Shown here one piece after another: positions 2,885 to 62,295 of a stretch of DNA of 64,000 nucleotides. The position numbers were made by a program, and so were the translations under genes. Position 1 is the first letter of the stretch. Each line of letters begins with the position of its first letter. Where the stretch lies: positions 18,768-82,767 of the forward strand of contig JAGGXI010000061.1 in assembly GCA_021163155.1 (NCBI GenBank), given 5' to 3'. Below the pieces are notes generated by a model. It worked only from the letters and a program-made list of their open reading frames with translations. It was not told the origin of the DNA and searched no databases. This DNA is from Candidatus Aerophobota bacterium. Lineage in GTDB: Bacteria; Aerophobota; Aerophobia; Aerophobales; JAGGXI01.

Positions 2885-3178
2885 GAAAAGGGATACCGGT
2901 AGCCGCAGGCTTTAGCCTGCGTAAAAGCAGGATTAGAGGGAAAAATAGGATTAGAGGATTTAAGGATTAGAGGATTAAAGAGAAAGAGATACCGGTAGCC
3001 GCAGGCTTTAGCCTGCGTAAAAGTAGGAGCAAAAGGAAAAATAGGATTAGAGGATTAGAGGATTAGAGGGAAAACCAAGAAAAAACAGAAACAAAAAAAA
3101 TAGGATTAAAGGATTAGAGAGAAAGGGATACCGGTAGCCGCAGGCTTTAGCCTGCGTAAAAGCAGGATTAAAGGGGAC
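2885..3178 (+). repeat. composite array of three REP-like elements (GATACCGGTAGCCGCAGGCTTTAGCCTGCGTAAAAGCAGG) interleaved with 8-bp GGATTARA tandem arrays and an A-rich AAAACCAAGAAAAAACAGAAAC module
   Basis: Core copies lie at about 2891-2939, 2988-3030 and 3126-3178. The GCAGGC-TTTA-GCCTGC stem-loop is preceded by GGTAGCC, a GTAG head. Tandem GGATTAGAGGATTAAAGG units lie between the cores. Confidence 0.85.
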
Positions 3179-3298
3179 TGTGCGTTGAAGTAGGTTAAAA
3201 ATACAGGAGGAGAAGTTCTTAAATAACCTTATTTATAGCAAAACGCAGGCTCTGGTTCAAAAAAAACAAGGTATTTTTGAAAGTATTGTAAAAGAGAG

Positions 3299-11499: not shown

Positions 11500-11598
11500 A
11501 GCAAGATTAAAGGATTAAAGGGAAGGAGATACGGTAGCCGCAGGCTTTAGCCTGCGTAAAAGCAAGATTAAAGGATTAAAGGATTAGAGGATTAAAGA
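11500..11598 (+). repeat. REP-like element (TACGGTAGCCGCAGGCTTTAGCCTGCGTAAAAGC) flanked by GGATTAAA/GGATTAGA 8-bp arrays
   Basis: Same core as at 2891-3178. The GGA-rich strand is on plus, matching the flanking ogt and secA. Confidence 0.85.
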
Positions 11599-11622: not shown

Positions 11623-11690
11623 ATACTACCGAATTCATTCGGTGGTAGCTTATGTCTACAGCGAAGCGATGGTGTTAACCACTGTAGAAC
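11623..11690 (+). repeat. third repeat family, about 52-nt unit, two hairpins (ACCACCGAATTCATTCGGTGGT...GCGAAGCGATGGTGTTAACCAC)
   Basis: Homologous copies at 23509-23570 (plus) and 35995-36060 (minus, circularly permuted, about 1.3 units). Confidence 0.7.
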
Positions 11691-11704
11691 TTAATAAATT
11701 TTCC

Positions 11705-20640: not shown

Positions 20641-20852
20641 TAGTTTAGTTCGGTAGCCGCAGGCTTTAGCCTGCGCTTTATCGCAACTTAAAAGTTGCGG
20701 CTACCATATCTATTTTCTTTAATCCTGTTTTTTGTTTTCGGTTTTCCCCTTTTTCTTTTCCCTCTAATCCTGTCTTTACGCAGGCTAAAGCCTGCGGCTA
20801 CCGGTATCTCTTTCCCTTTAATCCTCTAATCCTTTAATCCTCTAATCCTGCT
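20641..20852 (-). repeat. REPIN-like doublet (GGTAGCCGCAGGCTTTAGCCTGCG...GCAACTTAAAAGTTGCGGCTACC), then a minus-oriented REP core and CTAATCC arrays
   Basis: Inverted GGTAGCCGC/GCGGCTACC arms enclose two stem-loops (20648-20705). A minus-oriented core lies at 20775-20806 with arrays up to the mgtE stop. Confidence 0.85.
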
Positions 20853-22402: not shown

Positions 22403-22498
22403 AAAGCAGGATTAGAGGATTAAAGGATTAGAGGATTAGAGGGAAAGAGATACCGGTAGCCGCAGGCTTTAGCCTGCGTAAAAGCAAGATTAGAGGGA
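22403..22498 (+). repeat. REP-like core with GGATTAGA arrays in the suhB 5' leader, ending 8 nt before the ATG
   Basis: CAGGATTAGAGGATTAAAGGATTAGAGGATTAGAGGG-AAAGAGATACCGGTAGCCGCAGGCTTTAGCCTGCGTAAAAGCAAGATTAGAGGG. The terminal AGAGGGAAAAGAAAATG may act as the Shine-Dalgarno sequence. Confidence 0.85.
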
Positions 22499-22505
22499 AA
22501 AGAAA

Positions 22506-23288
22506 ATGATGGAAATAGCTGTAAAAGCCGCTAAAGAGGCGGGGAATGTATTATTAGATAACTTTGGAAAAGTTAAAGAAATAAAGACGAAGAGACAAAA
22601 TAATATTTTATCTCTTGTAAGTAATGTAGATATAGAGGCAGAGGAGAAGATATGCCATGTAATTAGGGAAATTTATCCTGAGCATAATATTCTTTCTGAA
22701 GAGGGAATGAATGTGAGTAAAAACTCTGATTATAAATGGATAATAGACCCTTTAGATGGTACTCATAATTATATTAGGAATATACCATTTTTTGGAATTT
22801 GTATAGCTCTTGCTTATCGGGGAGAGGTATTATTGGGAGTTATCTATTTGCCCTATTTTAGTGAGATGTTCACAGCCGAGAAAGGGAAGGGAGCTTATCT
22901 AAATGAGGGGAAAATTGAAGTATCCAAAAAAGGTCTAAAAGAAAGTATGCTAATTTATGATAGCGATCTTCACCTCGATAAAGCTATTATGTTTGGCTCT
23001 CTTAATAGGCTCGTGGGTAAAGTTTTTAATGTGAGGATGTTTGGCTCTTCTGCACAAAATCTCTCCTTTCTTGCCAGAGGTTATGTAGATTTAGTTATAG
23101 AATATCATGATAATCCTTGGGATTTTTCTGCAGGAGCTTTGCTGGTTGAGGAAGCAGGAGGAAAAGTAACAAATTTTGAGGGAAATAAATGGAGTCCAGA
23201 TGTGGGAAGATATGTTGCCTCTAATGGCAATGTGCATAACGAAGTTTTAAAAATATTAAAACGTGAGAGGCAAAAAAAGCAGGATTAG
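22506..23288 (+). CDS. suhB: inositol monophosphatase family protein (SuhB/IMPase-like)
   Basis: 260 aa. Motifs EEG (LSEEGMN), DPLDGT and the WDFSAG metal-binding segment. The stop codon TAG lies inside the first GGATTAG unit of the downstream repeat. Confidence 0.8.
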   Translation: MMEIAVKAAKEAGNVLLDNFGKVKEIKTKRQNNILSLVSNVDIEAEEKICHVIREIYPEHNILSEEGMNVSKNSDYKWIIDPLDGTHNYIRNIPFFGICIALAYRGEVLLGVIYLPYFSEMFTAEKGKGAYLNEGKIEVSKKGLKESMLIYDSDLHLDKAIMFGSLNRLVGKVFNVRMFGSSAQNLSFLARGYVDLVIEYHDNPWDFSAGALLVEEAGGKVTNFEGNKWSPDVGRYVASNGNVHNEVLKILKRERQKKQD

Positions 23289-23490
23289 AGAATTAGAGGA
23301 AAATAGATATGGTAGCCGCAACTTTTAAGTTGCGATAAAGCGCAGGCTTTACCCCGCTAAATAGTAGTAACATCTAATGGGGTTTAGCCTGCGTAAAGGC
23401 AGGATTAGAGGGAAAAGAAGGATTAGAGGATTAAAGGGAAAGAGATACCGGTAGCCGCAGGCTTTAGCCTGCGTAAAGGCAGGATTAAAG
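23283..23490 (+). repeat. composite REP array: REP variant (GGTAGCCGCAACTTTTAAGTTGCG), a REP core carrying a nested 33-bp ACCCC...GGGGT hairpin in its loop, GGATTAGA arrays, and a second intact REP core
   Basis: At 23341-23398 the sequence reads CGCAGGCTTT-[ACCCCGCTAAATAGTAGTAACATCTAATGGGGT]-TTAGCCTGCG. An intact copy follows at 23444-23478. Confidence 0.85.
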
Positions 23491-23508: not shown

Positions 23509-23570
23509 AATACCACCGAATTTATTCAGTGGTAGCTTATGTCTACAGCGAAGCGGTGGTTTCAACCACC
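23509..23570 (+). repeat. third-family repeat copy; its second hairpin (GGTGGTTTCAACCACC) is followed by TTATTTT, which is terminator-like
   Basis: About 90% identical to 11623-11690. Confidence 0.7.
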
Positions 23571-45157: not shown

Positions 45158-45382
45158 AAAGCGTTCTGCACTAACTAGTTTTTATACAGGGGAATCGGTG
45201 CGAGGATATAGACCTCATTTCCTCTTTTATTATGCACAGGAAGCTTATCTAAACCAAAGCCAAGCTTTTGCTCTTTGATCCTATTCTCTACCGTGGCTCG
45301 GTTATTGTAAAACCTATAGCAGGACAGTTTATCAAGCTCTTACGCAACCTGAAGGTTGCGGCTACCAATATTTTGCCTCCTT

Positions 45383-45907
45383 CTATAATCCTTTGTTTTG
45401 TTTTTCTTTCCTCTCTAATCCTGCTTTTCCTTCTTCCCCTCGGCCCTTTAAAATATCAATAGCATGGGGTAGGGTGGGAAGAATTAACTCAAGGCATTCT
45501 TTAACTCCTTTTGGGCTGCCGGGTAAATTAATGATGAGACTCTCTTTTCGTGTTCCCGCTGTAGCACGAGAGAGAATAGCATTAGGAGTAATTTTAAAGC
45601 TCTCTCCCCGCATCACTTCTCCAAATCCGAAAGCCTCTTTTTCTATTACATCTCTTGTAGCTTCTGGAGTATTATCGCGAGAGGAAAGCCCTGTTCCCCC
45701 TGTAGTTAAAACTAAATCTATTTTTAAACAATCAACCATCTCTTTAATGGTTTTTGAAATCAACCTTTTTTCATCAGGAACTATTTTATATTTAACTATT
45801 TTTCCTAAATTTTTTACTACTGCTTTAATAACAGGCCCGCTTTCATCTTTTTTTTCTCCTCGGCTGCATCTATCGCTAACAGTGATTATCCCAATACTAA
45901 TCTTCAT
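45383..45907 (-). CDS. mogA: molybdopterin adenylyltransferase MogA/MoaB family
   Basis: 174 aa. TTGGTG motif (LVLTTGGTGLSSRD) and GSP motif. The last about 12 residues (GLERKEKQNKGL) are encoded by a GGATTAGAG repeat element. Confidence 0.85.
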   Translation of the reverse strand: MKISIGIITVSDRCSRGEKKDESGPVIKAVVKNLGKIVKYKIVPDEKRLISKTIKEMVDCLKIDLVLTTGGTGLSSRDNTPEATRDVIEKEAFGFGEVMRGESFKITPNAILSRATAGTRKESLIINLPGSPKGVKECLELILPTLPHAIDILKGRGEEGKAGLERKEKQNKGL

Positions 45908-45935: not shown

Positions 45936-46130
45936 TTCCCTCTAATCCTCTAATCCTCTAATCCTTCTTTTTCCCTCTAATCCTGCCTTTACGCAGGCTC
46001 TGAGCCTCGCGGCTACCGGTATCTCTTTTTCTTTAATCCTGCCTTTTTGTTTCTGTTTTTTCCTGCTTTTCCCTCTAATCCTCTAATCCTCTAATCCTCT
46101 AATCCTGTTTTTTTTGTTTCTGCTTTTTTA
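45936..46130 (-). repeat. REP core (CGCAGGCTCTGAGCCTCGCGGCTACC subtype), CTAATCC arrays and an A-rich module between mogA and moaC
   Basis: CCCTCTAATCCTCTAATCCTCTAATCC...CCTTTACGCAGGCTCTGAGCCTCGCGGCTACCGGTATC...CTAATCCTCTAATCCTCTAATCCTCTAATCCTG. It overlaps the moaC 3' end. Confidence 0.85.
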
Positions 46131-48803: not shown

Positions 48804-48853
48804 TTCTGGAATTGGTAGCCGCGAGGCTCAGAGCCTGCGTAACCCGAAGGTTG
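48804..48853. repeat. REPIN-like doublet GGTAGCCGCGAGGCTCAGAGCCTGCG-TAACCCGAA-GGTTGCGGCTACC
   Basis: GTAG/CTAC arms enclose two palindromes. It lies in the moeA upstream region. Confidence 0.75.
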
Positions 48854-48880
48854 CGGCTACCGGTTTTTAACATTACTATA

Positions 48881-48918
48881 AAAAAAGGCCAACTCCTTTT
48901 GGAAAAAGGTATTGGCCT
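48881..48918 (-). terminator. putative bidirectional stem-loop (GGCCAA...TTGGCC) with a T7 run on the minus sense; candidate terminator of the pgsA-pgpA operon
   Basis: Minus-sense hairpin followed by TTTTTTT. It lies about 170 nt downstream of the pgpA stop. Confidence 0.4.
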
Positions 48919-49087
48919 TTATAAAAAGTTCCCCTTTCCAAGAATGGGAGGCATAGTCATTTCTAACTATACCCTATCGGCCATCTACCATAAACTCTCT
49001 TTTAGGTAAGATAGCTCGGAGAATTTAAAAACGTAAATATAATAAAAAGAGCTGACTTAATTTAATAAATTTTCAGTGAGTTGTCAA

Positions 49088-52225: not shown

Positions 52226-52753
52226 ATGCTAAATGAGAAATTAATAAGGTTATTGTCGGTTTTATTCGTTTTATTAATTCAGTATATTGTATTTCCAAAT
52301 GTTCTTTTGGCTGGAAATGTAGTGATAAATGAATTTGACCTCAATCCTGCAGGAAGAGATGCCGGTAATGAGTGGGTTGTGCTCTACAACCCAAATGAGA
52401 TTAGCGTAGATGTAAGCAGATGGACTTTGGAAGCTACACATGGAAAAGCAGTAACTATTAAGATACCTCAAGGCACTACAATATCTTCAAGAGGTTACTG
52501 GACTTATGTTCATTCAAGTCAATGGTTGGATAACCAGAATGAGTTGATTATACTAAGAGATGTAAAAGGCGTAGAGGTAGATAGAACTCTGGTGGCAAGC
52601 GATAGAGATAATGATAATCGCTACTGGGCAAGGTGTCCAGATGGCTTAGATACAGATTCAGATTCGGATTGGCGGTTTAAGGGGCGTGCATTATCAAAAG
52701 GGATAGTCGTAAGGGGAACGGTTGCGACCGTTCCCTACGCAAGGGACGATTAG
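52226..52753 (+). CDS. secreted lamin-tail-domain (LTD) protein
   Basis: 175 aa. Signal peptide, then the LTD pattern VVINEFDLNPAGRDAGNEWVVLYNPNEISVDVSRWTL. The last about 15 codons and the TAG stop overlap a GC-rich hairpin (GGAACGGTTGCGACCGTTCC) and a REP fragment. Confidence 0.6.
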   Translation: MLNEKLIRLLSVLFVLLIQYIVFPNVLLAGNVVINEFDLNPAGRDAGNEWVVLYNPNEISVDVSRWTLEATHGKAVTIKIPQGTTISSRGYWTYVHSSQWLDNQNELIILRDVKGVEVDRTLVASDRDNDNRYWARCPDGLDTDSDSDWRFKGRALSKGIVVRGTVATVPYARDD

Positions 52754-52788
52754 CCTCGCGGCTACCATTTTTTTCGTGCAAAAGTTGG

Positions 52789-52817
52789 TTGACAAAAGGG
52801 GTTTTTTTATGTATTAT
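52789..52817 (+). promoter_or_regulatory. sigma-70 consensus promoter TTGACA-N17-TATTAT, about 340 nt upstream of porG
   Basis: TTGACA at 52789-52794, a 17-nt spacer and TATTAT at 52812-52817. The downstream leader contains a (GAATA)n microsatellite and REP-family fragments. Confidence 0.45.
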
Positions 52818-53158
52818 TTATCCTGAATTTGGTAAACTATTAGAGTGTCTTCTGCGTAGAGTTCAGCAGTCAGAAGCCAGAATTTAGAATAGAATAGAAT
52901 AGAAATAGGGGATAGAATACAAAGTGCGGCTACCAATTTTACCCTTTATTTCCCCTCTGTGGAGGAGAAATATTACCTTTGGGACGTAGTTCACTGAATA
53001 TTTATGTAAAGCAAGAGTTAGAGGTAATTGGGAGGCTAAAGCCTCCCCTCCCCTGTAGAGAGCTTTAATAGGTTGTCGAATTATGGGCTAAAGTTAGTAC
53101 AGGGTGCCTAAATAGTTACATATTTAAATTAAATTTTAAAAAGGAGAAAGGAGATCTA

Positions 53159-56971: not shown

Positions 56972-57027
56972 AAGATTATCCTTTTATTGTAGTAGGTAAT
57001 ATCAAAAATAATCTTTTTTGGAATTGG

Positions 57028-57378
57028 TAGCCGCGAGACTCAGAGCCTGCGAGGATAGATATATACGCAACTTAAAAGTTGCGGCTACCACTTTTCATTT
57101 AGGATAATTTCCTCTCCCTATATAATTCTTTTTTCTTTTTTAGTTTTTCTTTCTCTCTTTTTCTTTCTCTCTTTTTCTCTAATCCTTCTTTTTTGCCCTT
57201 CACGTCTCACTTTTTACGTCTTACGTCTCACTGTTTTGCCTAATCCTTTAATCCTGCTTTTACGCAGGCTAAAGCCTGCGGCTACCGTATCTCCTTCCCT
57301 CTAATCCTGCTTTTTTGTTTCTGTTTTTTCTTGGTTTTCCCTTTAATCCTCTAATCCTTTAATCCTTTAATCCTGCTT
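57028..57378 (-). repeat. about 350-bp composite: REPIN doublet (57028-57095), T-rich microsatellites, a REP core (57255-57290) and CTAATCC arrays abutting the gatA stop
   Basis: GGTAGCCGCGAGACTCAGAGCCTGCG...CGCAACTTAAAAGTTGCGGCTACC, then ...CTTTTACGCAGGCTAAAGCCTGCGGCTACCG...CTTTAATCCTCTAATCCTTTAATCCTTTAATCCTGC. Confidence 0.85.
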
Positions 57379-61675: not shown

Positions 61676-61735
61676 TAGTTTATTTTATAAACAAGTCAGG
61701 CGAAATCGGTTATTGAAAGTATAAAGAGGGTAAGT

Positions 61736-61927
61736 ATGGGAAAATTTCGAGAGCATTATATTGTAGACGAAAAGGGGCGAACGACAGCAGCAATTCTTCC
61801 AGTTACGGAATGTGAAGAACTTTTAGAGGATCTCCATGATCTCGCAATCATCGCAGAACGTCGGGATGAGCCTACAGTAGCTTTTGAAGAACTCAATGAA
61901 CAGTTGGAAGAAAGTGGATTCTTATAA
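61736..61927 (+). CDS. small acidic type II antitoxin-like protein (Phd/YefM-RelB-like pattern)
   Basis: 63 aa. The core ILPVTECEELLEDLHDLAIIAERRDEPTVAFEEL resembles antitoxin DNA-binding and neutralisation regions. No intact toxin follows. Confidence 0.4.
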   Translation: MGKFREHYIVDEKGRTTAAILPVTECEELLEDLHDLAIIAERRDEPTVAFEELNEQLEESGFL

Positions 61928-61933
61928 GATTCA

Positions 61934-62175
61934 ATGGAAGAGATCAGCAGAACGAGACTTACGGAATATTGATTTACAGCAAATTCCTCGAATTATCAAG
62001 ACTGTCGAATCCCTAATGAATAATCCATAGAAAGAGTTCATGTGGATAGAGTTGCATATCCTTGGCTTATCAAAAGATTCATTGACTCTGATGCTGAGTT
62101 CATTTTTGTTCCCAGAGATACAGACCCTTCAATCATAAAGGATGGAATTCCCTTTGATATGAAAAGAGATTCCTA
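61934..62175 (+). pseudogene. decayed gene remnants: a frameshifted, truncated RelE/ParE-like toxin N-terminus, then a chromate-resistance (ChrB C-terminal)-like fragment
   Basis: Frame 1 gives MEEISRTRLTEY*. The +1 frame gives IDLQQIPRIIKTVESLMNNP* (toxin N-terminal helix pattern). From 62030 the translation SIERVHVDRVAYPWLIKRFIDSDAEFIFVPRDTDPSIIKDGIPFDMKRDS* matches the conserved WLIKRFIDP motif in only about 50 aa. Confidence 0.4.
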
Positions 62176-62295
62176 ATCCTGAGAGGATCTGGCAGCCTAT
62201 AGGGCAGGCGAGAATTCCCAAAAAGGAGTGGTTTGGGATATAATAGCGTTTGAAGTGAATAAACAAATGATTGTATGGAAACAGAGGATGAAATT

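What the first reader, a model, noticed from the sequence alone, without database searches (positions are those of the whole stretch)
22403..22498. 8-bp GGATTARA tandem arrays fused to the REPs always lie on the sense strand of flanking transcripts, giving GGA-rich RNA in an organism with CsrA-FliW
Eleven array-bearing loci are present: 2885-3178, 11500-11598, 20707-20852, 22403-22498, 23283-23490, 34893-35006, 36077-36185, 37806-38122, 45400-45425, 45936-46130 and 57096-57378. In every one the AGGATTAGAGGATTAAAGG strand matches the coding strand of both neighbouring genes. The chance of this is about 0.001 if orientation were random. Transcripts reading through these junctions would carry arrays of GGA / AGGA motifs spaced 8 nt apart, next to GC hairpins. 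That resembles the repeated GGA motifs of CsrB/RsmZ-type decoy RNAs, and a canonical CsrA is encoded here at 34093-34326. The arrays also look like iterated Shine-Dalgarno sequences, and at 22490-22505 the repeat apparently serves as the suhB RBS. My hypothesis is that these are cis-embedded CsrA- or ribosome-binding modules, or REP-type mRNA stabilisers. The alternative explanation is replication-strand compositional bias, because gene orientation and the repeat G-rich strand may both follow the leading strand.
Basis: partly seen in the sequence, partly recalled or inferred. Interest (0 to 1): 0.75.

Follow-up and report, generated by a model that had tools for sequence, protein, structure and literature searches.

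The report
Sense-strand purine repeat spacers beside REPs
In this uncultured Aerophobetes bacterium, short cytosine-free GGATTARA repeat arrays, usually joined to a mobile REP hairpin, have been inserted between genes and always point the same way as transcription; they look like tolerated (possibly mRNA-protecting) spacer elements, not a dedicated CsrA decoy.

Summary
The arrays are real and far above chance: 57 exact GGATTARAGG against 0.7 expected. They flank a GTAG-tagged REP hairpin. At every locus the G-rich strand is the sense strand of the gene the array abuts. The claim that both neighbours share that strand fails at two loci, one convergent and one divergent.

Silent-site GC skew shows one replication strand across the whole window. 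Seven of the eleven loci lie on lagging-strand genes, so orientation follows transcription, not replication.

FlgK places the organism in Candidatus Aerophobetes. Four relatives have compact flagellar junctions (3-130 nt) with no such arrays, where the window has 173-322 nt. A fifth relative has a different, GGA-less purine 7-mer array at the same junctions. Nearly every intergenic microsatellite in the window's lineage and the Aerophobetes MAGs examined is purine-rich on the sense strand.

The rule is therefore compositional, not GGA-specific. My best reading is a BIME-like mosaic of REPs and purine microsatellites inserted into operon junctions. Only the C-poor orientation, which is neither rut-like nor anti-SD-like, would be tolerated in mRNA. 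CsrA or ribosome binding is untested and not needed. It is a new variant of a known kind, of moderate interest.

The parts
2885..3178 (+). purA-clpB spacer: three head-to-tail REPs (2898-2921, 2994-3017, 3133-3156) interleaved with GGATTARA arrays; contains a 96-nt module duplication
11500..11598 (+). Spacer between the methyltransferase-domain gene (ogt-like) and secA: array, REP (11533-11556), array
20707..20852 (-). 3' of mgtE in a convergent spacer with argS: array begins 8 nt after the mgtE stop; REP at 20779-20802; a REPIN doublet lies at 20652-20705
22403..22498 (+). The target locus, 5' of suhB in a divergent spacer: AAAGCA, four units (22409-22440), GGGAAAGAGATACC, REP (22455-22478), TAAAAGCA, degenerate unit with GAGGG that probably serves as the suhB RBS (ATG at 22506)
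   Evidence: another sample carries an extra 154-nt module here
23283..23490 (+). 3' of suhB: the first unit supplies the suhB stop codon (TAG, 23286-23288); includes a REPIN whose second REP loop carries a nested hairpin insertion (23342-23392), then array, REP (23450-23473) and a further unit
34893..35006 (-). flgL-fliW intercistronic spacer: array, REP (34948-34971), arrays
36077..36185 (-). flgK-flgL intercistronic spacer: unit, REP (36136-36159), array
37806..38122 (-). flgN-flgK intercistronic spacer: six arrays of 2-4 units (14 exact units in all) joined by AAAGCA / GGGAAAAC linkers, plus one REP (37952-37975)
45400..45425 (-). A single GGATTAGA unit with an AAAGCA linker inside the 3' tail of the mog ORF (beyond its Pfam domain); a REP variant lies at 45343-45366
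45936..46130 (-). moaC-mog intercistronic spacer: a four-unit array overlaps the moaC stop codon; REP variant at 45992-46017; a three-unit array follows
57096..57378 (-). Spacer between the amidase gene and the thymidylate-synthase-like gene: array starts at the stop codon; REP at 57263-57286; further purine repeats (GTGAGACGTAA, GAGAGAAAGAAAAA); REPIN at 57026-57089
34093..34835 (-). fliW (34410-34835) and csrA (34093-34326): context genes, not part of the repeat element

Best explanation
The loci are BIME-like mosaic spacers made of two parts.
- One part is a GTAG-tagged REP hairpin. This is the kind mobilised by a RAYT, an IS200-like Y1 transposase.
- The other part is a set of short, cytosine-free, purine-rich microsatellite modules of the form AAAGCA-(GGATTARA)2-4-GGGAAA.

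Shown:
- In this Aerophobetes lineage the modules have been inserted into formerly compact junctions between a stop codon and the next ribosome-binding site. They also occur in some 5' and 3' untranslated regions.
- They grow and shrink there by slippage and by recombination between head-to-tail copies.
- They lie within operons and are strictly co-oriented with transcription, independent of the replication strand.

Inferred:
- The orientation is maintained at the RNA level. Only the G/A-rich, C-poor strand is tolerated in an untranslated stretch of mRNA.
- The reverse orientation would put C-rich, G-free, unstructured CCUCUAAUCC runs into the transcript. Such runs would be good Rho-loading (rut-like) sites and would cause polarity. 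They are also anti-Shine-Dalgarno mimics that pair with ribosome-binding sites, and they are perfectly complementary to the many sense copies elsewhere.
- The REP hairpin probably acts as a 3'-5' exonuclease barrier, as REPs do in E. coli.
- Each octamer reads T-TAR-AGGA, a stop codon followed by a weak SD core. In the sense orientation an array therefore stops stray translation in all three frames within three units and does not block re-initiation at the next gene.
For: Composite anatomy and excess over chance.

Orientation:
- 11 of 11 loci in the window are sense, and no intergenic unit is antisense.
- One further locus just outside the window is sense.
- 11 of 11 clusters in Aerophobetes MAG210 and Ae_b3b are sense.

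Independence from replication: four-fold-site GC skew splits by gene strand in all eight interleaved blocks. Ribosomal-protein, dnaB, secA and thrS-infC-rplT genes are all on the plus strand.

Location inside operons.

Lineage-specific insertion: the orthologous junctions in four relatives are 3-130 nt with no such arrays, against 173-322 nt here.

The rule is compositional:
- L233 has (GRGTRAA)16-17 at the same two junctions.
- Nearly every intergenic microsatellite in the window lineage and the Aerophobetes MAGs, whatever its unit, is 0.71-1.0 purine on the sense strand; the GCTATGA 7-mers are neutral and relative L230 has exceptions.
- Array-free spacers are purine-neutral, 0.47-0.61 on the sense strand.

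Turnover: near-identical strains differ by a 154-nt module, and the purA-clpB spacer holds a 96-nt module duplication.

Cost of the reverse orientation:
- Antisense RNA of the spacers is 27-36% C and 8-14% G. It pairs with real RBSs at -7 to -10 kcal/mol and with sense arrays at -43 kcal/mol.
- A Rho gene (57% identical to my recalled E. coli Rho sequence) is present in array-bearing MAG210, with an array directly after it.

RNA folding: the REP and its immediate flank give the main predicted hairpin, and array units form only weak predicted pairs.

REP class: the same 28-nt REP flanks Y1_Tnp genes in inverted orientation in five metagenome contigs. GTAG REPs are described in PMC3733652.
Against: - There is no expression, 3'-end or Rho data. 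Transcription through the spacers is inferred from operon context only, and the consensus promoter/terminator scan was uninformative.
- The selective agent (rut avoidance, anti-SD avoidance or antisense pairing) is not discriminated.
- The exact octamer and its AAAGCA / GGGAAAAC linkers are shared with MAG210. Passive tolerance does not explain this unless the module is one dispersed or mobile family. A sequence-specific binding factor remains possible.
- An orientation-specific insertion mechanism could produce the same pattern without selection.
- Two bare REPs at 52738-52766 and about 52930 lie antisense to the flanking plus genes, so the rule is strict for the purine modules, not for REPs.
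- Only about 80 kb of this genome was available.
- Calling the plus strand 'leading' relies on the usual G>C rule.
Confidence: 0.55

Rival explanations
1. The arrays are cis-embedded CsrA-binding modules or a distributed CsrA sponge. Repeated single-stranded ARAGGAU motifs in many mRNAs would bind CsrA dimers (sites 16 nt apart), either regulating the flanking cistrons or buffering free CsrA alongside FliW.
For: CsrA and FliW are encoded in the window, and three array loci lie in their own operon. The unit RAGGAU resembles the CsrA core A(N)GGA; this comparison is from my own knowledge of the SELEX consensus. The arrays are largely unstructured.
Against: - There is no CsrB/Rsm-like Rfam match.
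- Relatives with fliW-csrA lack the arrays at the same junctions.
- A sister lineage has GGA-free GRGTRAA arrays at those junctions, and other GGA-free purine repeats obey the same orientation rule.
- The loci are spread over purA, secA, mgtE, suhB, moa and amidase genes, not a motility regulon.
- The GGA motifs are not presented in hairpin loops.
- About 60 units per 64 kb would amount to thousands of sites per genome, far above any known sponge.
- The flagellin leader has its own conventional candidate sites.
Confidence: 0.1
2. The arrays are ribosome-binding modules. Iterated weak Shine-Dalgarno mimics would hold 30S or 70S particles after termination, aiding re-initiation across long spacers, or would protect downstream RNA from 5'-3' decay in the manner of STAB-SD.
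For: Each unit pairs with a CCUCCUUUCU-type anti-SD at about -5.5 kcal/mol. The unit reads as stop codon plus AGGA. The last degenerate unit plausibly is the suhB RBS. The arrays sit exactly between a stop codon and the next start.
Against: - The pairing is much weaker than real RBSs here, which are -9 to -16 kcal/mol.
- Most downstream genes keep their own separate RBS after the element.
- GRGTRAA, CAGAAAAAC and TTAAGAA-type repeats with little SD character behave the same way.
- Relatives manage with 3-25 nt junctions.
- The 16S 3' end of this organism was not available.
Confidence: 0.15
3. The orientation bias is produced by the insertion or birth mechanism, not by selection. The module might integrate strand-specifically into single-stranded non-template DNA, or at a sense-strand target such as a stop-SD junction. 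Alternatively the arrays might arise in place by slippage of the TAA-AGGA junction.
For: RAYT/IS200-type enzymes act on single-stranded DNA in a strand-specific way (PMC6006769 abstract). In 9 of 10 gene-downstream loci the module begins within about 6 nt of, or overlaps, the stop codon. The unit resembles a stop-SD junction. Module copy number changes by recombination or duplication in place.
Against: - MAG210 arrays mostly lack REPs yet are equally oriented.
- Many unrelated purine repeats share the rule, which points to a compositional filter.
- ssDNA transposition is known to follow the replication strand, which is excluded here.
- Abutting the stop codon is expected anyway if the ancestral junctions were 3-25 nt.
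Confidence: 0.15
4. Replication-strand compositional bias: both gene direction and the G-rich repeat strand simply follow the leading strand.
For: The large gene blocks are co-oriented with their arrays, and bulk GC skew tracks both.
Against: Silent-site skew shows the plus strand is G-enriched under both plus and minus genes along the whole window, with no switch at 25.9 kb. Seven array loci therefore have their G-rich strand on the C-enriched replication strand. Orientation flips three times within 20.6-22.5 kb, following single genes.
Confidence: 0.02

Closest known systems
GTAG-tagged REPs, BIMEs and REPINs mobilised by RAYTs (Di Nocera et al. 2013, PMC3733652; Nunvar 2010; Bertels & Rainey 2011)
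   Same: A GTAG tetranucleotide lies 5' of a 7-bp GC-rich stem with a 4-nt loop. Copy number is high and the copies are intergenic, mostly after stop codons between co-directional or convergent genes. Copies cluster with linker segments into mosaics, and REPIN doublets are present. The same REP flanks Y1 transposase genes in inverted orientation elsewhere.
   Different: Most copies here are single or head-to-tail, and are co-oriented with transcription instead of alternating. The linkers are cytosine-free octamer microsatellites with strict strand polarity. No RAYT lies in the window. The arrays also occur without REPs in a related MAG.
CsrB/RsmZ-type decoy sRNAs
   Same: Both carry many closely spaced GGA motifs in an RNA, in an organism that has CsrA.
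   Different: Those are dedicated sRNA genes with GGA in hairpin loops. Here the motifs lie in unstructured parts of mRNAs, give no covariance-model match, are absent from relatives with CsrA, and are replaced by GGA-less repeats in one relative.
STAB-SD 5' mRNA stabiliser (B. thuringiensis cryIIIA) and internal SD-like motifs
   Same: Both are SD-like sequences in untranslated mRNA that are not used for initiation.
   Different: STAB-SD is a single strong GAAAGGAGG. Here there are 2-4 weak units per array, on both sides of a hairpin, with no evidence of ribosome binding.
Cyanobacterial STRR heptamer repeats and other intergenic microsatellites
   Same: Both are short tandem arrays with 7-8 nt periods in intergenic DNA, in several unit types per genome. 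GGATTARA-type arrays also occur in cyanobacterial, acidobacterial, Desulfacinum and Bacteroidota loci.
   Different: In those other phyla the orientation is only moderately biased. After gene ends it is 40 sense against 13 antisense, and in co-directional pairs 32 against 22 (crude gene calls). Some of those arrays form inverted pairs. The strict lock is seen in the Aerophobetes data.
Purine loading of transcripts (Szybalski's rule) and Rho rut-site composition (C>G)
   Same: The sense strand is purine-rich and C-poor in coding regions (G 0.21, C 0.14) and more so in the spacers (G 0.27, C 0.12).
   Different: Those are general compositional rules. Here the rule is applied to discrete repeated modules, while array-free spacers are nearly purine-neutral.
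Strand-polar octamers that follow replication (KOPS GGGNAGGG, Chi)
   Same: They are G-rich 8-mers with strong strand polarity.
   Different: Those follow the replication strand. These flip with individual genes and sit on lagging-strand genes.

Membership tests
GTAG-REP / REPIN-RAYT system | Unpaired GTAG tag at the 5' end of a short GC-rich palindrome | tested here: met
   GGTAG-CCGCAGGC-TTTA-GCCTGCG is present in 12 exact copies, plus variants with compensatory stem changes.
GTAG-REP / REPIN-RAYT system | High copy number, extragenic, mainly downstream of ORFs | tested here: met
   At least 26 copies lie in 64 kb. All are intergenic or at gene ends, and none is in a divergent spacer except the suhB 5' copy.
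GTAG-REP / REPIN-RAYT system | Inverted doublets (REPINs) | tested here: met
   Doublets lie at 20652-20705, 23311-23392, 48814-48870 and 57026-57089. Most array-linked copies are single or head-to-tail.
GTAG-REP / REPIN-RAYT system | A cognate RAYT (Y1_Tnp) gene flanked by inverted REPs | tested here: inconclusive
   No Y1_Tnp was found among the 37 window proteins I scanned, and the contig annotations cover the rest. The identical 28-nt REP does flank Y1_Tnp genes (PF01797, E=2.4e-6; 42-56% identical to one another) in inverted orientation in five metagenome contigs. The rest of this genome was not available.
CsrB/RsmZ-type CsrA-sequestering RNA | Match to a curated covariance model, or a stand-alone sRNA gene | tested here: not met
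   There are no Rfam hits at gathering score in the window, and none at E<=1 in 20.5-23.7 kb or 33.7-38.7 kb apart from two chance-level matches. The arrays lie within operon spacers.
CsrB/RsmZ-type CsrA-sequestering RNA | GGA motifs displayed in hairpin loops | tested here: not met
   The REP and its immediate flank form the main predicted hairpin. Array units have a mean unpaired probability of 0.57-0.71, with only weak G-U/A-U pairing.
CsrB/RsmZ-type CsrA-sequestering RNA | CsrA binding with a regulatory effect | not testable with these tools
   This needs a gel shift or CLIP. The comparative evidence argues against it.
Intrinsic (Rho-independent) terminator | GC-rich hairpin followed by a U tract | tested here: not met
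   The REP is followed by TAAAAGCAGGATTA, not a T run. The scan did not flag the array-linked REPs on their sense strand.
Replication-oriented polar octamers (KOPS/Chi-like) | Polarity follows the replication strand irrespective of gene direction | tested here: not met
   Seven loci lie on genes of the strand that is C-enriched at silent sites.
SD-like mRNA stabiliser (STAB-SD) | Strong anti-SD complementarity and 30S binding in a UTR | tested here: inconclusive
   Pairing is about -5.5 kcal/mol per unit against an assumed anti-SD, compared with -9 to -16 for real RBSs. The 16S 3' end and ribosome binding could not be examined.

The most novel reading that the evidence does not exclude
The purine, C-free modules are functional directional elements of operon architecture in Aerophobetes. 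In the sense direction they would give a Rho-proof, stop-rich, SD-studded spacer, possibly also occupied by CsrA or ribosomes. Any antisense or read-through transcript crossing them would acquire a C-rich, G-free rut site and be terminated by Rho. This would be a mobile, orientation-locked 'one-way insulator' that spreads with, or without, REPs.
Probability: 0.15. Interest if true: 0.75.

Novelty: new variant of a known kind. Interest (0 to 1): 0.45.

Why it matters
REPs and BIMEs are usually treated as orientation-indifferent genomic clutter. Here a mosaic family in a poorly known candidate phylum shows an absolute, replication-independent lock to the direction of transcription, and sister lineages fill the same junctions with different purine repeats. 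That gives a clean natural experiment on what an untranslated stretch inside a bacterial operon is allowed to look like: C-poor, purine-rich, stop-rich, and not anti-SD-like. It also yields testable predictions about Rho polarity, antisense suppression and mRNA stability. On the practical side, these repeats break metagenome assemblies of this lineage at nearly every occurrence.

Tried and rejected
- Replication-strand bias is rejected by four-fold-site skew.
- Generic purine loading of all intergenic DNA is rejected, because array-free spacers are purine-neutral.
- No known RNA family matches.
- The arrays are not intrinsic terminators, and the promoter/terminator consensus scan showed no enrichment over shuffles.
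- tRNA or tmRNA linkage is excluded, as none is present.
- A coding repeat is excluded, because stop codons appear in all three frames within three units on both strands (sequence inspection).
- A strict 16-nt G/A alternation that would suit CsrA dimer spacing is not significant.
- A two-tier G-quadruplex (G2N6)4 is possible only for the few four-unit arrays, and I did not pursue it.
About 70 are expected by chance (my own estimate for 596 Gb searched on both strands), so it gave no genome-wide census of the source organism.
- The metagenome scan with the REP did not contain the source organism.
- Literature searches for the sequences, and for oriented octamer or purine repeats, found nothing relevant.
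- MAG210 loci share no genes with the window, so its distance from the source organism could not be measured.
- The contigs carrying window proteins are essentially the same strain (99.7-99.98% identical where compared), so they carry little polymorphism signal beyond one module indel.
Full report
**1. What is in the sequence**

The target (22403-22498) reads:
- AAAGCA;
- four GGATTARA units (22409-22440);
- GGGAAAGAGATACC;
- GGTAG-CCGCAGGC-TTTA-GCCTGCG (22455-22478);
- TAAAAGCA;
- a degenerate unit, AGATTAGAGGG;
- AAAAGAAA and the ATG of an inositol-monophosphatase (suhB-like) gene at 22506.

- A 16-mer of two units with up to 2 mismatches occurs 40 times, against 0.83 expected.
- Exact GGATTARAGG occurs 57 times, against 0.72 expected.
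- The 20-nt hairpin core occurs 12 times, against 0 expected.
- Arrays are short, 2-4 units. They are chained by AAAGCA and GGGAAA(A/C) linkers, sometimes with other purine repeats such as GTGAGACGTAA and GAGAGAAAGAAAAA.
- The hairpin carries the GTAG tag that defines the largest REP superfamily (PMC3733652).
- At least 26 copies of several stem variants, with compensatory stem changes, and several inverted REPIN doublets are present.
- 45400-45425 holds only one unit.

**2. Orientation**

I built the gene map from ORFs, Pfam and contig annotations.

At every locus the G-rich strand is the sense strand of the gene the element abuts. No unit lies antisense in any intergenic region.

- 20707-20852 lies between convergent argS(+) and mgtE(-). 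It starts 8 nt after the mgtE stop.
- 22403-22498 lies between divergent mgtE(-) and suhB(+). It ends 8 nt before the suhB ATG.

Three loci are intercistronic in flgN-flgK-flgL-fliW-csrA. One lies in the Moco-riboswitch-controlled moeA-moaA-moaC-mog operon. Transcription through them is therefore very likely, though I have not shown it directly.

In 9 of 10 gene-downstream loci the module begins within about 6 nt of the stop codon. For suhB and moaC it supplies the stop codon itself.

**3. Transcription or replication?**

Bulk GC skew only mirrors gene strand, so I used four-fold degenerate sites:

| Measure | Plus genes | Minus genes |
|---|---|---|
| Sense-strand GC skew | +0.06 (G 418, C 369) | -0.30 (G 345, C 634) |
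| Genes with sense G<C | 7 of 22 | 25 of 30 |

- The difference appears in all eight interleaved blocks: plus blocks are -0.01 to +0.10, minus blocks -0.28 to -0.44.
- It is highly significant (chi2=56, p=7e-14; Mann-Whitney p=1e-6).
- The plus strand is therefore G-enriched at silent sites along the entire window, with no switch at the 25.9-kb convergence point.
- By the usual rule the plus strand is the leading strand. This fits dnaB, secA, argS, thrS-infC-rpmI-rplT and rpmA all lying on the plus strand.
- Seven of the eleven loci thus sit on lagging-strand genes, with their G-rich strand on the C-enriched replication strand.

Orientation follows transcription.

**4. Whose genome, and is the feature conserved?**

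The exact proteins occur only on metagenome contigs that are essentially the same strain (99.7-99.98% identical where compared) and that break at the repeats. FlgK's closest named relatives are Candidatus Aerophobetes, at 65-69% identity.

Junction lengths in four relatives (L229-L232), compared with the window:

| Junction | Relatives | Window |
|---|---|---|
| flgN-flgK | 14-130 nt | 322 nt |
| flgK-flgL | 3-23 nt | 278 nt |
| flgL-fliW | 4 nt | 173 nt |
| fliW-csrA | 10 nt | 83 nt |

- None of those four relatives has GGATTARA arrays at these junctions.
- A fifth relative (L233, GC 47%) has, at the flgN-flgK junction and directly after flgK, a different C-free purine 7-mer array, (GRGTRAA)16-17, on the sense strand. 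It contains no GGA.
- Aerophobetes MAG210 and Ae_b3b, found through the array pattern, carry the same AAAGCA-(GGATTARA)n-GGGAAAAC modules. These are mostly without REPs, and 11 of 11 clusters are sense.
- A TRF survey of all the Aerophobetes loci I had shows that nearly every intergenic microsatellite in the window lineage and the MAGs is 0.71-1.0 purine on the sense strand, whatever its unit: CAGAAAAAC, GAAACCAGA, TTAAGAA, ATTGAGA, AGACGTA and others.
- The exceptions are the purine-neutral GCTATGA 7-mers and several repeats in relative L230, including an inverted pair.
- Array-free spacers in the window are purine-neutral, 0.47-0.61 on the sense strand.
- Outside Aerophobetes the same octamer arrays occur in many phyla but are only moderately biased. 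After gene ends the count is 40 sense against 13 antisense, and in co-directional pairs 32 against 22. These counts rest on crude gene calls.

**5. The REP**

- The 28-nt REP is identical in 109 metagenome contigs with GC from 22% to 59%. It mostly forms a REPIN with a compensatory-variant partner.
- In five of those contigs it flanks, in inverted orientation, Y1_Tnp (RAYT-like) genes that are only 42-56% identical to each other.
- None of those contigs shows the array flanks, so the arrays are a lineage-specific addition to a widespread REP.
- Near-identical strains differ by a 154-nt module at the target locus.
- The purA-clpB spacer contains a 96-nt module duplication.

Both observations indicate turnover by recombination and slippage.

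**6. RNA properties**

- The REP and its immediate flank give the main predicted hairpin, and the arrays form only weak predicted pairs. In RNA, an alternative pairing of the REP 3' half with the following GCAGGAUUAGAG is predicted.
- The SD consensus here is AAGGAGG. One unit pairs with an assumed anti-SD at about -5.5 kcal/mol, against -9 to -16 for real RBSs. The suhB site scores -7.5.
- Sense spacer RNA is 8-14% C and 24-36% G. The antisense RNA is the mirror image.
- That antisense RNA would pair with RBSs at -7 to -10 kcal/mol and with sense arrays at -43 kcal/mol.
- MAG210 encodes Rho, 57% identical to the E. coli Rho sequence I supplied from memory, with an array directly after the gene.
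- No Rfam family matches.

**7. Interpretation**

Shown:
- The elements are REP-plus-purine-microsatellite mosaics.
- They are lineage-specific insertions into compact junctions.
- They turn over between strains.
- They are locked to the direction of transcription, independently of replication.
- The lock is compositional, not specific to GGA.

Inferred:
- The lock reflects what is tolerated in an untranslated part of an mRNA.
- The flipped orientation would create C-rich, G-free, unstructured RNA. Such RNA would be rut-like, anti-SD-like and complementary to the many sense copies.
- The sense orientation is inert or mildly useful. It gives stop codons in all frames and weak SD mimics, and the hairpin may act as a 3' exonuclease block.

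On the other readings:
- The CsrA-decoy reading is not excluded biochemically. It is unnecessary, however, and fits the comparative data poorly.
- Ribosome tethering is possible but weakly supported.
- A strand-specific insertion mechanism is a live alternative to selection.

**8. Verdict**

- The replication alternative is refuted.
- The CsrA interpretation is not supported as the general explanation.
- The element is a new variant of the REP/BIME kind, with an unusual strict transcriptional polarity.
- Interest is moderate. It would be higher if the modules prove to be directional Rho insulators or true CsrA or ribosome platforms.

Noticed in passing
L112-L220 (metagenome contigs); window REPs such as 22455-22478: The 28-nt REP GGTAGCCGCAGGCTTTAGCCTGCGTAAA is identical in 109 contigs from dozens of metagenomes with GC from 22% to 59%. 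It usually forms a REPIN with the partner CGCAACCTAAAGGTTGCGGCTACC. It is sometimes embedded in larger MITE-like units, for example one with TAGTAGAGCGATTCC...GGAATCGCTTTACTA ends. In five contigs it flanks RAYT-like Y1_Tnp genes that are only 42-56% identical to each other. Such cross-lineage identity is unusual for REPs.
   Followed up: partly
L233:3069-3182 and L233:4825-4945: An Aerophobetes relative (69% FlgK identity) carries (GRGTRAA)16-17, a C-free purine 7-mer array without GGA. It sits at the flgN-flgK junction and directly after flgK (the contig ends there), the positions where the window has GGATTARA/REP modules.
   Followed up: yes
window 23342-23392; also 34337-34413 and about 33880-33925: A 33-nt hairpin element (CCCCGCTAAATAG...ATCTAATGGGG) is inserted into the loop of a REP, with a TTTA duplication on both sides. 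Copies of the same hairpin family fill the fliW-csrA spacer (two tandem copies, TRF period 36) and occur in the flagellin leader.
   Followed up: no
window 11641-11700, 23510-23570, 35990-36040: Another recurrent element, ..GGTGGTAGCTTATGTCTACAGCGAAGCGGTGGTTTCAACCACC.., follows the array modules at three loci, always on the sense strand. At 23555-23570 the GGTGGTTTCAACCACC hairpin is followed by a T-rich run and looks like a terminator.
   Followed up: no
window 52738-52830: A REP in antisense orientation overlaps the end of the LTD-domain gene. It is followed by CGTGCAAAAGTTGG-TTGACA-17 nt-TATTAT, a perfect -35 hexamer with a near-consensus -10 and 17-nt spacing. The same CCAACTTTTGCACGAAAAAAT box adjoins the REP in many metagenome contigs, for example L117, L131, L149 and L206. 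It may be a REP-linked outward promoter.
   Followed up: no
window 33811-33860 (minus strand): The flagellin 5' leader has a hairpin with an AGGGAA loop (CCGCC-AGGGAA-GGCGG) followed by AUCAAGGAGGAU at the SD. This resembles the two-site CsrA operator of B. subtilis hag and is the more likely real CsrA target here.
   Followed up: no
window 48915-49033 (minus strand): A Moco/tungsten riboswitch (RF01055, 79.5 bits) lies upstream of moeA-moaA-moaC-mog. The operon it controls contains one of the array/REP spacers.
   Followed up: partly
window 1-64000: Silent-site skew indicates a single replichore with the plus strand leading. The whole 26-kb flagellar/moa block (25.9-52 kb), together with polA, ftsK, mgtE and the amidase gene, is on the lagging strand.
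   Followed up: yes
window 61676-62295: This 620-nt 'intergenic' stretch between the sugar nucleotidyltransferase gene and polA contains small unlisted ORFs. One has an antitoxin-like sequence (..EELLEDLHDLAIIAERRDEP..). A ChrB_C-domain fragment is annotated on sister contigs.
   Followed up: no
L006:1825-1900, L017:3737-3900 (Desulfacinum, 63% GC); L110, L028, L052 (Acidobacteriota): GGATTARA arrays also occur in very GC-rich genomes right after gene ends, next to (GGGGTARG)n or (CACCCAT)n repeats. They are conserved at the same coordinates in equally windowed contigs of two Desulfacinum genomes (L017 and L063). In Acidobacteriota they form long inverted pairs. L006 and L054 both have an array close to a rho gene.
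   Followed up: partly
L002:1700-1860 versus window 22479-22487; L223 versus window about 3140-3250: Module-level polymorphism exists between otherwise near-identical (about 99.97%) strains: an extra 154-nt array/GTAAGACG/REP module in L002 and a 105-nt deletion between REP-like GCAGGCT repeats in L223. Either could partly be an assembly artefact.
   Followed up: partly
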